A DNA stretch of 12,591 nt, from positions 456,535-469,125 of the forward strand of contig JBAZXC010000001.1 in assembly GCA_041660065.1 (NCBI GenBank), given 5' to 3'. The translations under genes and the position numbers were made by a program. This DNA is from Parcubacteria group bacterium (GTDB lineage: Bacteria; Patescibacteriota; Minisyncoccia; Moranbacterales; GCA-2747515). Numbering within the stretch: position 1 is the first letter of the stretch; every line of letters starts with the position of its first letter. Below the pieces are notes generated by a model. The model had not been told where the DNA came from and did no database searches. It saw only the letters and a program-made list of their open reading frames with translations. Of the stretch, positions 84 to 4,206 are shown piece after piece.

Positions 84-983
84 CTATTTTAACATCCACA
101 CATCATTTTTGCACAGTACCATCTGGTCTTTTTTTAATCCATCCAAAACATTTTTACACCATTCATGATCATTTGCTTCATGCCAGTCCTTTTTGATCAC
201 TTGCCCGATATCGTTAATTGTTCCATTTCTCTGTCGTAAAAATTCCACTATGCGTCCTCGAAATATCCTCCGTGGCACATGTTTGTCACATTCACTCCGT
301 CCAACTTCTTTGCGCGCAACCTTTTTTTCATCCTGCGGATTCGGAAATGACAAACACATATCCATAAGGGGGCATTGCAAACATTGTGGCGCACGTTTTG
401 TACATATGATCGATGCAAAATCCATCAGCGCATTATGCCAATCTCGCGCATGCCCACGATACAAGAATTTTTCTGTCCACTTTACAACCTGTTTTTCCGG
501 TGCACTTTTTTTCTTGTGCAGTCGGCGCATGATACGCGCGATATTTACATCACATGCTGCCACATCACGATTACGTGCAAATATCAATATTGAGCGACTT
601 GTATATGTACCAATACCCGAAAACTCTATCAGTATTTCTGGCTCATCAGGAAATATACTTTGAAAATCTTTTACGATCGTTTGCGCCATTTTGTGTACAT
701 AGATTGCACGTCGATTGTATCCCAATCCCTGCCATTGCGTGATCACATCTTTTTGTGAAGCTTGCGCAAGCCGCTTGATTGTTGGAAAACGTTTGAAAAA
801 ACTTGTATACTTTTCAATAACCTTTGGTACATTTGTCTGCTGTAACATGATTTCCGCAATTGCAACATGATAGATATCTGTGGTTTTTCTCCACGGCAAA
901 TAATGGCGTCCGTATTTTCTATACCAAAGCATGATCTTTTTATGCATGACATCAACTTTATTTTGCATAGGCATTTTTACCAT
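84..983 (-). CDS. mutY: A/G-specific adenine DNA glycosylase, MutY-like (HhH-GPD plus 4Fe-4S cluster loop)
   Basis: The translation has WYRKYGRHYLPWR...YHVAIAEIMLQQTNV, matching the MutY/EndoIII N-terminus. The HhH motif is GIGTYTSRSIL, with no Lys after the GxG, which is MutY-like. The catalytic Asp context is AACDVNIARI. The FeS loop CTKRAPQCLQCPLMDMC has C-x6-C-x2-C-x5-C spacing. The track ORF runs to 1058, but that extension overlaps the upstream thermonuclease gene. The start is placed at the in-frame ATG 983-981; ATGs at 974 or 968 are alternatives. Stop is TAG at 86-84. Confidence 0.8.
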   Translation of the reverse strand: MVKMPMQNKVDVMHKKIMLWYRKYGRHYLPWRKTTDIYHVAIAEIMLQQTNVPKVIEKYTSFFKRFPTIKRLAQASQKDVITQWQGLGYNRRAIYVHKMAQTIVKDFQSIFPDEPEILIEFSGIGTYTSRSILIFARNRDVAACDVNIARIMRRLHKKKSAPEKQVVKWTEKFLYRGHARDWHNALMDFASIICTKRAPQCLQCPLMDMCLSFPNPQDEKKVARKEVGRSECDKHVPRRIFRGRIVEFLRQRNGTINDIGQVIKKDWHEANDHEWCKNVLDGLKKDQMVLCKNDVWMLK

Positions 984-1461
984 CAATTGACCATATCCCA
1001 CTCTCCGTTTCTCGCGCCCGCGTTTCCGCTTCCTTGAAATCCTGCACATGCGCAACATCCGGCGGATATGTTACGAGTCGTGCATAGCCATCCTCGATCA
1101 TTGTTTTATTGACCCATTGCTCTCCAACGTATACATGCCGCAAGAGACGCCCATAGCGATCTTTTTCGGATACATCTTTTTTTAATATGACATCTTTATC
1201 TTCTATCAAACTTTTCAGGTGTGCTGTTGCCTCCGCATAATATGGTTTGCCTCGCTCCGGCGTATCCATACCGATCATACGCACACGCTCACCGGTTTCT
1301 ATATCAAATGTATCCCCATCCACTATGTGTGTAACATGATGTGTCTCCATTGGAATATCTGCAGATCCTTCCTCTACTTGTGGCAAATCCATGCGATCTG
1401 CCATATACAGAATTGCCAACATAATGATGAGTGGAATAGCTTTTTTGAGGATACTTGACAT
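958..1461 (-). CDS. Secreted or membrane-anchored thermonuclease (staphylococcal nuclease/SNase-like)
   Basis: SNase motifs IVDGDTFDI, RVRMIGMDTPE, DRYGRLLRHVYV and GIWS are present. The N-terminus MSSILKKAIPLIIMLAILYMA looks like a signal peptide or anchor. The track ORF extends to 1707 via a TTG start, but that extension contains a plus-strand terminator hairpin and is antisense to an SD-led small ORF, so the ATG at 1461 is chosen. Confidence 0.8.
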   Translation of the reverse strand: MSSILKKAIPLIIMLAILYMADRMDLPQVEEGSADIPMETHHVTHIVDGDTFDIETGERVRMIGMDTPERGKPYYAEATAHLKSLIEDKDVILKKDVSEKDRYGRLLRHVYVGEQWVNKTMIEDGYARLVTYPPDVAHVQDFKEAETRARETESGIWSIDGKNAYAK

Positions 1462-1472
1462 TTTGGTTAATT

Positions 1473-1503
1473 TATAATACAGTCGGTGACACAACACAGG
1501 GGG
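1473..1503 (+). promoter_or_regulatory. Perfect -10 hexamer TATAAT (1473-1478) plus strong Shine-Dalgarno GGGGG (1499-1503), 7 nt before ATG 1511
   Basis: The sequence reads tttataatacagtcggtgacacaacacagggggttgaaaaATG. No well-spaced -35 was found: TTGACA at 1455-1460 is only 12 nt away. The SD is the only strong one seen at any gene start in this window. Confidence 0.45.
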
Positions 1504-1510
1504 TTGAAAA

Positions 1511-1681
1511 ATGGCAAAAATCGATAAAACCCACACGAGTTTCTTGGCCGAAATGATCAAAGCGTTGACCCAAGTGACACAAGAAACAGAACCACTTCCC
1601 AAAGAAATGTCGACAGCAGAATGGGACAGTTCAGTAATTCGTGATGACTTTAAGAAAATTCTGAGATCATATAAACAATAA
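1511..1681 (+). CDS. Small hypothetical protein, 56 aa (MAKIDKTHTSFLAEMIKALTQVTQETEPLPKEMSTAEWDSSVIRDDFKKILRSYKQ)
   Basis: This ORF is below the ORF-track size cutoff and was found by reading the sequence. It has ATG 1511 and TAA 1679-1681. It is preceded by a GGGGG SD at optimal spacing and a TATAAT box, and followed immediately by a GC-stem hairpin with a T-run. Its GC content is slightly higher than the surrounding intergenic DNA. No family was recognised. Confidence 0.55.
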   Translation: MAKIDKTHTSFLAEMIKALTQVTQETEPLPKEMSTAEWDSSVIRDDFKKILRSYKQ

Positions 1682-1692
1682 TACCTCTTATC

Positions 1693-1725
1693 GGCGATAT
1701 TCACCAAATATCGCCTTTATTTTTT
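1693..1725 (+). terminator. Rho-independent terminator: GGCGATAT-tcaccaa-ATATCGCC followed by TTTATTTTTT
   Basis: A perfect 8-bp stem (1693-1700 pairing with 1708-1715) has a 7-nt loop and is followed by a T-rich run at 1716-1725. The T-run overlaps the last codons and stop of the minus-strand peptidase gene. Confidence 0.7.
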
Positions 1726-2508
1726 GATCACGATCACATTTTTGTTTGCGCCGGAAATTTTTTCCTTTTCACCTGTTATGTAATCGCGAATCGCATTATA
1801 GAGGACACTGTCTTTGTATTTGTATCCCCTGCCCAATCGCGTACCGGGATCGTTTGTAATAAATTCTTTGTTCTTTTTGTCATACCCAATGATCACTACC
1901 ATATGTCGATCCGGACCGCCATTGGTAAAGTTCGGATTATTAAGCATTTTTCCATTAGTCGGCACAATGACGATTGATCCTTGTGCAAGAATGGCATAAA
2001 TATCTTCCATTGTAACGCCCGTGCGCAGTTCCGCCGGATAATGATAATATTCCTGAAAGATCTTTGCCGTATCCGCAGTTGACGTATCAATACTTCCGCC
2101 GAAATTTTTATCCTCATAGGAAAACAAGCTTTCCAATTCATTTTCTGCATCATTTTTTGAGATAGAACCTTCTCCGGTGACCCATGCATGTGCCATGAGC
2201 ATGGACGCCTCTTCACATGCATCTTGAAACCGCGGATCATCCCATTGCGCATGTGGCGCCTGCGCAGTAAATGGCACAGATTGCTTGATCGATTCTTTGA
2301 CCTCAACTGTTTTTTGCTCAACATCATTGGCGTGTGTTTCGGCAATCACTGTTTCTTTTTTTGTTTCCACTTCTTGTTGTTTTTCTCTCTCTGTTATGAT
2401 TGACGCATCAGAATACTCTACAAAAAATTTGTCCGGTACGATATACCATATAAAAACCACCAAGAAAAAGACACATAGAAGAGTACCCCGAATCATTATG
2501 CTTTTCAT
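1717..2508 (-). CDS. Membrane-anchored C39-like (papain-fold) cysteine peptidase, Peptidase_C39_2-type
   Basis: It has an N-terminal TM helix (TLLCVFFLVVFIWYIV). A Gln...Cys motif FQDACEEASMLMAHAW is followed later by the His motif RHMVVIIGYD...ITNDPG. Together these are typical of C39-like or BtrH-like peptidases. The track ORF starts at a TTG; the first ATG at 2508 is used (MKSIMIRG...). Confidence 0.65.
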   Translation of the reverse strand: MKSIMIRGTLLCVFFLVVFIWYIVPDKFFVEYSDASIITEREKQQEVETKKETVIAETHANDVEQKTVEVKESIKQSVPFTAQAPHAQWDDPRFQDACEEASMLMAHAWVTGEGSISKNDAENELESLFSYEDKNFGGSIDTSTADTAKIFQEYYHYPAELRTGVTMEDIYAILAQGSIVIVPTNGKMLNNPNFTNGGPDRHMVVIIGYDKKNKEFITNDPGTRLGRGYKYKDSVLYNAIRDYITGEKEKISGANKNVIVIKK

Positions 2509-2618: not shown

Positions 2619-3194
2619 ATGAGAAAAATCGTACTTGATATTGAAACAAAAAACACTTTCCAAGAGATTGGGTCAAATGACCCCGCAAAACTCGACATAT
2701 CCCTTCTTGTGATTTATGACTATAAAACAGACAACTATTTGACATTTATGGAAAAAAATCTCAATGAATTGTGGCCGATCCTCGAAGAAACCGATTTGAT
2801 CATCGGGTACAATTCAGACCACTTTGACATCCCACTCCTTAATAAATATTATCCGGGAGATTTGACTGCGGTTGGCAGCTTGGATCTTATGACAGAGATC
2901 AAGAAAGTGATTGGACGGAGCATCCGACTCGACAATATCGCCGAAGCTACGCTCGGAGCAGGCAAAAGTGGCCATGGACTTCAGGCCATTGAATGGTGGA
3001 AGGATGGCAAGATCGACAAAATCGAAAAATACTGTCGTGATGATGTAAAGATCACGAAGGAGATTTATGAATATGCGCTAAAAAGCGGGAAGCTGAAATA
3101 TAAAGATCTGCTTGACGTTGTCACATTCGATATAAATACAACGGCATGGGACAAAAAAACAAACCAAGCGATCAATTACACCTTGCCATTGTAA
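2619..3194 (+). CDS. DEDDy-type 3'-5' exonuclease, RNase H-like fold (YprB / PolB-exonuclease-domain-like)
   Basis: Three motifs define it: DIETKN (Exo I), GYNSDHFDIPLL (Exo II) and YCRDDVKITKEIY (Exo III with Tyr). Size is 191 aa, with an ATG start and a TAA stop at 3192-3194. Confidence 0.7.
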   Translation: MRKIVLDIETKNTFQEIGSNDPAKLDISLLVIYDYKTDNYLTFMEKNLNELWPILEETDLIIGYNSDHFDIPLLNKYYPGDLTAVGSLDLMTEIKKVIGRSIRLDNIAEATLGAGKSGHGLQAIEWWKDGKIDKIEKYCRDDVKITKEIYEYALKSGKLKYKDLLDVVTFDINTTAWDKKTNQAINYTLPL

Positions 3195-3199
3195 ACCCC

Positions 3200-4206
3200 T
3201 TATAAACCATGTGTCTGTTTATTGACGATGTGTTCTTCAAAAGTTTTGGAAAAGATTGTTTCTCCGGTGGATGGATCATTCAAAAAATACATGTAGTCAG
3301 TTTTTGCTGGTGCAATCGCCGCATCAATCGAAGCCAATGACGGATTATTGATCGGTCCCACAGGCAATCCAGGATATTTGTACGTATTGTATGGTGAATC
3401 AATTTCAATGTCCTCTTGTGAGTGTTTGATCTCCGCATCACCTTTGATATAATCGATTGTCGCATCACTTTGTAATGCCATATTGATCTGCAAACGATTG
3501 TTAAAAATGCCCGCAACCACACTCCGATCACCATGCAGCGGCACCTCTCCCTCAATAACACTCGCAAAAATGATTACATCATGCAAATTACGACCATGTT
3601 CCTTGATTGCGGTCCGTCTGCCGTCATCAACCTTTTTGTTAAAATTATCCAACATTTTTTCAATAATTTCCTGCGCTGTCGCAGTAGGCAAAAATGAATA
3701 TGTGTCTGGAAATAAATATCCTTCAAGAGACGCTCCTCGTGTAAGGAAATCGTACTTTTGATAAGTTCCGCAGGCGGATCAAGTGCGATCTTTTGAAACT
3801 CCTCCCCCGGCAATCCCTTTGCATTAAGTCGATCTTTCATTTTTTCCGCTGACCATCCCTCAGGAAAAAGAACATCAATATCTTGATCGACTTTGATCAT
3901 TGCCTGCCCATCTGTTGTCAATTTGTATACAATATCAGCAATAGTACTTTGTGGTTCGATCATATAATCACCTTCATTGAACTGTCCACGCAATTTATTT
4001 TTCCATGCATAATAATAAAAATAAAACCTGTTTGCAATCAAATCATCGTCCGCAAGCTTTTGTCCAATCACAACAATATCATCACCTTTTTGTACCGTGA
4101 ATTGAAAACCACTCGTATTGAGTGACACGCTTTTTTGTGTTCGCACATGTAAAAAAAATATACTACACACAAGTATGCCCAAAACAATGATAATCCATTT
4201 TTTCAT
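3200..4206 (-). pseudogene. mltG: Endolytic murein transglycosylase MltG/YceG, disrupted by an apparent 1-nt deletion in a homopolymer (coding-strand A4, plus-strand TTTT 3756-3759)
   Basis: Track ORF 3574..4206 supplies the N-terminus: signal anchor MKKWIIIVLGILVCSIFF and FPEGWSAEKMKDRLNAKGLPGEEFQKIAL. The other frame supplies YDFLTRGASLEGYLFPDTYSFLPTATAQEII, then track ORF 3200..3691 with ASVIEGE...VVAGIFNNRLQINMALQSDATIDY...SPYNTYKYPGLPVGPI. These are the hallmark YceG motifs. Adding one A at ATCAAAAGT would give ...AELIKKYDFLTRGASLEGYLFPDTY... as one continuous 335-aa protein. Confidence 0.75.

What the first reader, a model, noticed from the sequence alone, without database searches (positions are those of the whole stretch)
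1455..1725. SD-led 56-aa ORF with its own -10 box and terminator, antisense between a secreted nuclease and a secreted peptidase
In a window where essentially no gene has a Shine-Dalgarno, this tiny plus-strand ORF (1511-1681) has a textbook one: GGGGG, 7 nt from the ATG. It also has a perfect TATAAT upstream and the cleanest rho-independent terminator in the window (GGCGATAT/ATATCGCC plus a T-run). It is an independent transcription unit, transcribed divergently from the exported SNase-like thermonuclease, and it invalidates the long TTG-initiated extension of the nuclease ORF. One testable hypothesis is a cytoplasmic nuclease inhibitor or immunity partner, analogous to barstar/barnase or NuiA/NucA. 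Another is a small regulatory protein. The protein is hydrophilic with no recognisable family.
Basis: partly seen in the sequence, partly recalled or inferred. Interest (0 to 1): 0.6.

Follow-up and report, generated by a model that had tools for sequence, protein, structure and literature searches.

The report
Orphan small gene splitting nuclease operon
The 56-codon reading frame is a real small protein gene with its own promoter, ribosome-binding site and terminator, found only in one Parcubacteria subgroup, but it is broken or absent in most relatives that keep the nuclease intact, so it is almost certainly not a nuclease inhibitor.

Summary
ORF 1511-1681 (+) has GGGGG 7 nt before its ATG, a TTGACA-17-TACAGT promoter that also contains TATAAT, and the best terminator hairpin in the window.

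It is a genuine protein-coding gene. A Moraniibacteriota relative (L009/L010) has a homologue at the same site and in the same orientation. The alignment score is 98, against a maximum of 53 in 20,000 shuffles. Codon position 3 is the least conserved.

Neither protein search found anything else: the 1.84-billion-protein search returned only the query, and the indexed profile search added only the 42-aa L009/L010 protein. There is no Pfam, PHROG, NCBIfam, PADLOC, PDB or Rfam match.

In other relatives examined, the peptidase and nuclease genes lie 0-19 nt apart. The small gene therefore looks like an inserted cassette that split an ancestral peptidase-SNase-HhH-GPD-LytB operon.

The window carries the only intact copy seen. 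An IS element cuts the gene after codon 12 in the closest relatives, a 1-nt insertion frameshifts it in L009/L010, and it has decayed in L006. SNase is intact in every locus that carries it. This argues against the immunity hypothesis.

One oddity remains. This is the only gene with a strong Shine-Dalgarno among about 36 neighbours checked, and that holds in all three lineages. Its function is unknown. The protein is predicted to be a cytoplasmic two-helix hairpin.

The parts
1455..1460 (+). -35 box TTGACA of the small gene's promoter. It overlaps the SNase start codon (ATG at 1461-1459 on the minus strand).
   Evidence: TTGACA-17-TACAGT, 10/12. The same TTGACA is present in L003 (12/12 promoter), in L009 (11/12) and, by eye, in L006.
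1473..1483 (+). -10 region: TATAAT at 1473-1478 (12-nt spacing) overlapping TACAGT at 1478-1483 (17-nt spacing, the likely functional hexamer).
   Evidence: TACAGT aligns with TATAAT in L003. L009 has TATATT at the same 17-nt spacing.
1499..1503 (+). Shine-Dalgarno-like GGGGG, 7 nt before the ATG.
   Evidence: The equivalent positions are AGGAGGAGG in L002-L005 and AGGAGG in L009/L010. None of 36 other genes in these loci has a strong SD.
1511..1681 (+). Small protein gene of 56 aa plus stop. The product is predicted to be a two-helix hairpin (helices 6-25 and 40-55).
   Evidence: The homologue in L009/L010 scores 98 by Smith-Waterman against a shuffle mean of 23 (sd 4.5). Codon-position identity is 0.48/0.64/0.39.
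1693..1725 (+). Intrinsic terminator: a 9-bp hairpin (1693-1715) plus the T-run TTTATTTTTT (1716-1725). The T-run overlaps the peptidase stop and its last Lys codons.
   Evidence: L009 has a structurally equivalent hairpin with a different sequence (12 bp, -18.1 kcal/mol) and the same kind of T-run.
958..1461 (-). SNase-family thermonuclease, 167 aa, with an N-terminal hydrophobic signal anchor. It is the divergent neighbour of the small gene.
   Evidence: PF00565, E = 5e-20. (P0002, 100% identity, 167 aa). (the DGDT...DTPE...DRYGR motifs are conserved).
1717..2508 (-). Peptidase_C39_2-like protein with an N-terminal transmembrane anchor. It is the convergent neighbour, and in most relatives it sits directly upstream of SNase.
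   Evidence: PF13529, E = 2e-13. Synteny.

Best explanation
The ORF is a real, independently transcribed gene for a lineage-restricted ('orphan') cytoplasmic protein of 56 aa, predicted to fold as an amphipathic two-helix hairpin.

It arrived as a self-contained cassette of strong sigma-70-type promoter, SD, ORF and intrinsic terminator. The cassette inserted head-on between the peptidase_C39_2 and SNase genes of an ancestral peptidase-SNase-HhH-GPD-LytB operon, in one Moranbacteria-type Parcubacteria subclade. This follows from the distribution across relatives.

The protein was under purifying selection over the window-to-L009 divergence. That much is shown. It is nevertheless dispensable, because three of the four lineages that have the spacer have lost the reading frame while keeping SNase.

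From its size and predicted fold, it most likely acts by binding a partner or by self-associating into a helical bundle, not as an enzyme. This step is inferred. It is not an SNase immunity factor.

In cis, the cassette separates the peptidase and SNase transcription units. Its promoter also overlaps the SNase start region, so its activity probably competes with SNase transcription. This last step is inferred and untested.
For: Signals
- Promoter, SD and terminator are present and stand out in the window.
- They are conserved in relatives. L003 has TTGACA-17-TATAAT (12/12) and AGGAGGAGG. L009 has TTGACA-17-TATATT (11/12), AGGAGG, and a 12-bp hairpin of different sequence followed by a T-run.

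Coding
- L009/L010 carry a homologue at the same site and in the same orientation.
- After removing one A from TACAAATAGC, the alignment is ungapped over 53 residues. The Smith-Waterman score is 98, and 0 of 20,000 shuffles reach it (maximum 53).
- Codon-position identities are 0.48, 0.64 and 0.39. Nine of the 21 identical residues use different codons, for example Ser AGT versus TCG.
- L002-L005 keep codons 1-12 with three synonymous and two non-synonymous changes.

Insertion
- Peptidase and SNase are 0-19 nt apart in L007, L008, L011-L018.
- The SNases of the spacer-bearing loci cluster together in a neighbour-joining tree.

Dispensability
- An IS element (DUF4096 + DDE_Tnp_1) follows codon 12 in four contigs from four samples.
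- The frameshifted 42-aa allele was recorded on seven contigs. The four loci read, from four records, are identical over the ~350 nt compared.
- In L006 both the ORF and the hairpin have decayed.

Fold
- AlphaFold2 predicts two helices with mean pLDDT 68.7.
- The conserved hydrophobic residues fall at i/i+3/i+4 spacing.
- The sequence has no hydrophobic segment, so the protein is probably cytoplasmic.
Against: - No expression data exist.
- Only one intact copy is known, so recent selection on the window's own copy is untested.
- The protein has no detectable relatives beyond L009/L010 in 1.84 billion representatives. Function therefore rests on inference alone.
- The AlphaFold2 confidence is moderate and the alignment behind it has only two sequences.
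- P0011 (L016) nests inside the spacer-bearing SNase clade yet lacks the spacer. The history therefore needs either one loss or an error in a tree built on 118 columns.
- Repeated decay alongside retained promoters fits equally well with a unit whose transcription matters more than its protein.
Confidence: 0.7

Rival explanations
1. Cytoplasmic inhibitor or immunity partner of the neighbouring SNase (barstar/NuiA-like). It would neutralise nuclease that folds before export.
For: The only support is adjacency and divergent orientation to SNase, in the window and in three related lineages.
Against: - SNase homologues in nine related loci (about seven lineages) have no such partner, and their gene is fused into an operon with the peptidase.
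- In L002-L005, L006 and L009/L010 the small gene is disrupted while SNase is intact. P0003 is 97% identical to the window's enzyme in the mature domain, and the catalytic motifs are conserved.
- SNase has an N-terminal signal anchor. From general knowledge, the staphylococcal enzyme needs Ca2+ and has no known immunity protein.
- No hit to Barstar, NuiA or colicin-immunity models at E <= 10. No fold match either.
Confidence: 0.04
2. The unit works mainly in cis or as RNA. It would be a head-on transcription unit inside a former operon (a noncontiguous-operon or excludon-like arrangement). Its transcription or transcript would interfere with read-through from the peptidase into SNase and with the overlapping SNase promoter. 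The peptide would be secondary.
For: - The gene lies on the opposite strand inside an otherwise co-directional, tightly packed operon.
- On the peptidase strand the hairpin is not followed by a U-tract, so read-through antisense to the ORF is plausible.
- The -35 box overlaps the SNase start codon. In L009 and L003 an SNase-strand promoter (TTGCCA-16-TATAAT, 11/12; TTGCCA-16-TATTGT, 9/12) uses the reverse complement of the ORF's ATGGCAA as its -35 box. The two promoters therefore overlap.
- The promoter survives in lineages where the ORF is broken.
- Noncontiguous operons with mutual repression are documented in S. aureus (PMC11034616).
Against: - The window-versus-L009 substitution pattern is that of a protein: position 3 is the least conserved and Ser codon families are switched.
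- A conserved strong SD makes no sense for a purely RNA-level role.
- In the window no SNase-strand promoter reaches 9/12.
- The disruptions in L002-5 and L009 look recent, so a retained promoter there says little.
- No Rfam match.
Confidence: 0.15
3. The window's copy, although intact, is a functionless relic on its way to loss, as in its relatives.
For: Three of four lineages have lost the frame by independent routes: an IS, a 1-nt insertion and general decay. The window's -10 (TACAGT) and SD (GGGGG) are weaker than those of its relatives.
Against: The 56-codon frame is fully open. All 21 residues shared with L009 are retained, and the terminator is perfect. Random decay would be expected to have introduced stops or indels, as it did in L006.
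Confidence: 0.08

Closest known systems
Proteinaceous nuclease inhibitors or immunity proteins (barstar/barnase, NuiA/NucA, colicin E Im proteins)
   Same: A small hydrophilic cytoplasmic protein encoded next to a secreted nuclease gene.
   Different: There is no sequence or fold similarity. It does not co-occur with the nuclease across relatives, and it is lost while the nuclease is kept. At 56 aa and two helices it is smaller than any of those folds.
Noncontiguous operons and excludons (S. aureus menE-menC/MW1733; PMC11034616, PMC7154746)
   Same: A gene transcribed in the opposite direction sits inside a run of co-directional genes that form a tight operon in relatives. There is potential for overlapping transcripts and promoter competition.
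   Different: Overlapping transcripts and mutual repression are defining features and cannot be shown from sequence. Here the opposite-strand gene has its own efficient-looking terminator, and in some lineages SNase seems to have gained its own promoter in the spacer.
rpsU (bS21) of Flavobacteriia: the lone SD-bearing gene in an SD-'blind' lineage (PMC9976891, PMC13000453)
   Same: A small gene that is the only one with a strong, conserved SD among dozens of SD-less neighbours. Parcubacteria often lack bS21 and, in a subgroup, the anti-SD motif (PMC9297842).
   Different: There is no similarity to Ribosomal_S21. The protein is neutral to mildly basic rather than highly basic, and it is dispensable. 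Genome-wide SD usage and the 16S 3' end of this organism are unknown.
Taxonomically restricted small protein genes annotated as 'hypothetical protein'
   Same: Annotated in GenBank as hypothetical protein WC819_02375. It is short, has no family and has a narrow distribution.
   Different: Unlike most such calls, this one is backed by conserved expression signals and a coding-type substitution pattern in a distant relative.

Membership tests
Nuclease inhibitor / immunity proteins (Barstar PF01337, NuiA PF07924, Colicin_Pyocin immunity PF01320) | Sequence or fold homology to a known inhibitor family | tested here: not met
Nuclease inhibitor / immunity proteins | Obligate co-occurrence with the cognate nuclease: the nuclease is never kept without the inhibitor | tested here: not met
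   SNase is intact with no small ORF in L007, L008, L011-L018. It is also intact next to a disrupted ORF in L002-L005, L006 and L009/L010.
Nuclease inhibitor / immunity proteins | Physical binding and inhibition of the nuclease | not testable with these tools
   No multimer prediction or biochemistry is available here.
Protein-coding gene (as opposed to a chance ORF) | Conservation of the amino-acid sequence, with excess change at the third codon position, in a divergent relative at the same locus | tested here: met
   Smith-Waterman score 98 against a shuffle maximum of 53 (0 of 20,000). Codon-position identity 0.48/0.64/0.39. Nine conserved residues are encoded by different codons.
Independent sigma-70 transcription unit with an intrinsic terminator | -35/-10 hexamers at 16-18 nt spacing upstream, and a GC-rich hairpin plus U-tract downstream, conserved in relatives | tested here: met
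   Relatives score 12/12 and 11/12. The hairpin is kept in L009 with a different stem sequence. Actual transcription is not testable here.
Noncontiguous operon | An opposite-strand gene embedded in an operon | tested here: met
   Peptidase-SNase-HhH-GPD-LytB is contiguous and co-directional, with 0-19 nt between peptidase and SNase in relatives. Here the small gene lies between them on the other strand.
Noncontiguous operon | Operon transcript overlapping the opposite gene, with mutual repression | not testable with these tools
   This needs strand-specific or direct RNA sequencing. The only supporting sequence feature is that no U-tract follows the hairpin on the peptidase strand.
bS21 (rpsU)-type SD-gated gene | Homology to ribosomal protein bS21 | tested here: not met
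   No Ribosomal_S21 hit at E <= 10. By my own residue count the net charge is about 0 in the window's protein and about +5 in the reconstructed L009 protein.
bS21 (rpsU)-type SD-gated gene | A lone strong SD in an SD-poor genome | tested here: inconclusive
   This holds locally. None of 36 other genes in the window, L002, L006 and L009 has a strong SD, and 1 of 41 in sister loci does. Whole genomes and the 16S 3' end are not available.

The most novel reading that the evidence does not exclude
The small gene may belong to a class of self-contained, SD-led micro-gene cassettes in Parcubacteria whose other genes do not use SD. A second, unrelated example is the 50-aa acidic ORF with AAGGAGGG and a terminator at L015 4924-5076. 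The conserved SD would make its translation depend on the availability of the ribosome's anti-SD. That would resemble rpsU autoregulation in Flavobacteriia, so the protein would report on, or act on, ribosome state.
Probability: 0.07. Interest if true: 0.7.

Novelty: new member of a known kind. Interest (0 to 1): 0.33.

Why it matters
The result corrects an attractive but wrong reading, that of a nuclease immunity pair. It shows that the secreted SNase of these Parcubacteria needs no partner.

It also documents a tiny orphan protein family, of which the window holds the only intact copy. The locus gives a clear picture of how such a gene enters a conserved operon as a complete expression cassette and is then lost by several independent routes.

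The most useful lead for a specialist is that the small gene alone keeps a strong Shine-Dalgarno across three lineages in an otherwise SD-less neighbourhood. This bears on how translation initiation works in CPR bacteria.

Tried and rejected
- Word-indexed search of 5.8 billion proteins with the 56-aa sequence: only the query itself.
- Exhaustive phmmer search of 1.84 billion representatives: only the query itself.
- Profile of the window protein plus the reconstructed L009 protein: only the query and the 42-aa P0122.
- Exact-sequence contig lookup of the small protein: not on record.
- Metagenome contig scans by peptide patterns and by a DNA pattern of the conserved 5' end: nothing. The collection evidently lacks even the L002/L003 contigs.
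- Viral contigs, phage records and plasmid records by tblastn or patterns: nothing. A phage or plasmid origin is therefore unsupported.
- Pfam, PHROGs, NCBIfam and PADLOC at E <= 10: only sub-threshold noise, namely DSS1/SEM1, Syntaxin_2 and MinE.
- Rfam on the whole window: no match.
- Terminal inverted or direct repeats that would mark a mobile element around the spacer: only short chance-level repeats.
- Programmed +1 frameshift in L009 at AAA-TAG: considered and rejected by inspection. There is no slippery codon pair and no upstream SD-like stimulator. A simple 1-nt insertion restores a perfect alignment.
- Traces of the ORF in L006: only weak, non-significant matches, IQINFKKPLRFTK and KSASKRNP.
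- RHH or HTH DNA-binding fold: rejected, because the model has only two helices and a long loop.

Full report
**What is in the window**

The window comes from a Parcubacteria-group MAG. The small protein is identical to GenBank 'hypothetical protein WC819_02375'.

The region reads as follows:
- HhH-GPD glycosylase, 84-1058, minus strand.
- SNase-family thermonuclease, 958-1461, minus strand, 167 aa, PF00565, E = 5e-20.
- The small ORF, 1511-1681, plus strand.
- Peptidase_C39_2-like protein, 1717-2508, minus strand.
- An RNase-H-fold exonuclease, 2619-3194, plus strand.
- Housekeeping genes (YceG, PCMT, UppS, polyprenyl synthase and others).

SNase and the peptidase both begin with a positively charged N-terminus followed by a hydrophobic stretch. 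I infer that they are exported or membrane-anchored. The small protein has no hydrophobic segment.

**Check of the observation**

- GGGGG occupies 1499-1503, 7 nt before the ATG.
- TATAAT is at 1473-1478.
- The hairpin GGCGATATT/AATATCGCC (1693-1715) is followed by TTTATTTTTT.
- The hairpin folds at -11.8 kcal/mol, with z = -4.6 against shuffles. It is the longest-stemmed of the 13 terminator-like sites and heads that list.

Two refinements apply.
- TATAAT lies only 12 nt after the -35 TTGACA (1455-1460). The hexamer at the canonical 17-nt spacing is TACAGT (1478-1483). This gives a 10/12 promoter, tied second-best in the window.
- The T-run is at the same time the complement of the peptidase's Lys-Lys-stop. 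On the peptidase strand no U-tract follows the hairpin, so the terminator is one-directional.

The claim that other genes lack an SD is correct. None of the 12 other gene starts has an SD-like motif. This is the only intergenic SD-plus-ATG ORF in the window.

**Is it a gene?**

Protein searches alone say 'orphan'. The indexed search found only the query, as did the exhaustive search of 1.84 billion representatives. Synteny was decisive.

I looked up the contexts of the closest SNase homologues.

In a Moraniibacteriota complete genome (L009) and an independent MAG (L010), a 302-nt spacer separates the peptidase and SNase. It holds the following on the strand opposite to SNase:
- TTGACA-17-TATATT.
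- AGGAGG, 8 nt before an ATG.
- A 42-codon ORF.
- A 12-bp hairpin (-18.1 kcal/mol) plus T-run.

The 42-aa product aligns with residues 1-37 of the window's protein. The following 17 codons align with its C-terminus in the +1 frame. Removing one A from TACAAATAGC restores a 59-aa protein that aligns without gaps over 53 residues.

The Smith-Waterman score is 98. Shuffles give a mean of 23.3, an sd of 4.5 and a maximum of 53 in 20,000 trials. Identity by codon position is 0.48, 0.64 and 0.39. Nine of the 21 identical residues use different codons. That is the signature of purifying selection on a protein, not on DNA or RNA.

The closest relatives are L002-L005, whose SNase is 85% identical overall and 97% in the mature domain. 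They have a perfect TTGACA-17-TATAAT, AGGAGGAGG, and the first 12 codons (MAKIDKNHASFL). Those codons carry three synonymous and two non-synonymous changes. After them comes the end of an IS carrying DUF4096 and DDE_Tnp_1 genes.

**Origin and fate**

In L007, L008, L011 and L012-L018 the peptidase and SNase genes are 0-19 nt apart. They form a co-directional peptidase-SNase-(HhH-GPD)-LytB string. L001 lacks SNase altogether.

The SNases of the spacer-bearing loci (P0002, P0003, P0004, P0007) cluster together in a neighbour-joining tree. P0011 falls inside that group although its locus lacks the spacer.

The simplest history is a single insertion of a complete cassette of about 250-300 nt into an ancestral operon, followed by losses.

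Among the four spacer-bearing lineages, only the window has an intact frame.
- L002-L005 are interrupted by the IS, in four contigs from four samples.
- L009/L010 carry the 1-nt insertion. The 42-aa product was recorded on seven contigs, and the four loci read are identical over the ~350 nt compared.
- L006 keeps the -35 TTGACA and a TATAAT box (by inspection) but has lost the ORF and the hairpin.

SNase is intact in all the loci that carry it, with the DGDT...DTPE...DRYGR motifs. These correspond, from general knowledge of staphylococcal nuclease, to the Ca2+ ligands and catalytic Arg and Glu residues.

The 'independent transcription unit' reading is supported, as is 'invalidates the TTG extension'. 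Homologues and the NCBI call begin at the ATG at 1461.

The immunity hypothesis fails its most important test. An antidote cannot be absent or broken wherever the toxin persists.

**Most likely mechanism**

Shown:
- A protein-coding gene with conserved promoter, SD and terminator.
- A narrow distribution.
- Dispensability.

Inferred:
- The product is a cytoplasmic amphipathic helical hairpin. The conserved residues L12, I16, L19, I43, F47, I50, L51 and Y54 form hydrophobic stripes. It probably acts by binding a partner or by self-association.
- In cis, the cassette cuts the old operon in two.
- Its promoter overlaps the SNase start region. The -35 box covers the SNase ATG. In L009 and L003 an SNase-strand promoter uses the reverse complement of the ORF's ATGGCAA as its own -35 box. 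Occupancy of the two promoters by RNA polymerase is therefore probably mutually exclusive.

The main rival treats this cis or antisense effect (a noncontiguous-operon-like arrangement; PMC11034616) as the true function. It cannot be excluded without transcriptomics. It does not, however, explain the coding-type conservation or the conserved SD.

**The unexplained oddity**

Across the window, L002, L006 and L009, none of 36 other genes has a strong SD. The small gene has one in all three lineages where its start survives: GGGGG, AGGAGGAGG and AGGAGG.

In 41 genes of sister loci there is a single exception. It is another unrelated small ORF of 50 aa, acidic, with AAGGAGGG and a terminator, at L015 4924-5076.

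The published background is as follows:
- A Parcubacteria subgroup often lacks the anti-SD motif, and Parcubacteria often lack bS21 (PMC9297842).
- In Flavobacterium the only strongly SD-bearing gene is rpsU. Ribosomes whose anti-SD is free translate it at a higher rate (PMC9976891, PMC13000453).

The small protein is not bS21. Even so, an SD-dependent small gene in an SD-less setting deserves a genome-wide look.

**Verdict**

This is a real small orphan gene that is correctly annotated as hypothetical. The immunity reading is not supported. Interest is modest, raised somewhat by the conserved lone SD and by the clear insertion-and-decay history.

Noticed in passing
window 3200-4206 (-): The YceG/MltG gene is split between two reading frames. 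Residues 1-171 of the L006 orthologue match one frame and residues 149-335 match another. This is a frameshift, a pseudogene or an assembly error.
   Followed up: partly
window 958-1058: The first-ATG HhH-GPD ORF (84-1058) would overlap the SNase 3' end by 101 nt. Orthologues are 295-305 aa and overlap SNase by only 13-44 nt, or start just after it, so the true start is probably near 983.
   Followed up: partly
L015 4924-5076 (+): A second, unrelated SD-led small ORF lies between LytB and Peptidase_M50. It encodes 50 aa, very acidic: MKTDVCIVLSPKECLDGFDLIKNYPFHDLDDSDEFVLIYDEFDEFDELIE. It has AAGGAGGG upstream and a hairpin plus T-run downstream. It is the only strongly SD-bearing gene among 41 checked in sister loci.
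   Followed up: partly
L002 75-885; also L003-L005: An IS element (DUF4096 + DDE_Tnp_1 transposase genes) is inserted after codon 12 of the small gene, leaving a 15-codon stub, MAKIDKNHASFLVTV*. The junction is the same in four contigs from four samples.
   Followed up: yes
L009/L010 2745-2922 (-): The homologue is frameshifted by a 1-nt insertion (TACAATAGC to TACAAATAGC), giving a 42-aa product. The downstream frame is still open and conserved. The product was recorded on seven contigs, and the four loci read are identical.
   Followed up: yes
L009 2916-2960; L003 ~150-180: On the SNase strand, TTGCCA (the reverse complement of the small gene's ATGGCAA) serves as the -35 box of a promoter-like site pointing at SNase. 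It scores 11/12 in L009 and 9/12 in L003. In the window the matching site has no acceptable -10 hexamer.
   Followed up: partly
L001 6001-7769: In this Moraniibacteriota genome the peptidase gene is followed directly by HhH-GPD, with a 4-nt overlap. There is no SNase and no small ORF, so SNase itself is variably present in the cluster.
   Followed up: no
L010 4680-4823 (+): Another called 47-aa ORF (MGKREAISVLMLSPIYWRLTTQQRVELIKEYCDLYNKVSQDSEQEHL) lies between LytB and aconitase. Its upstream signals were not examined, and it is unrelated to the small protein.
   Followed up: no
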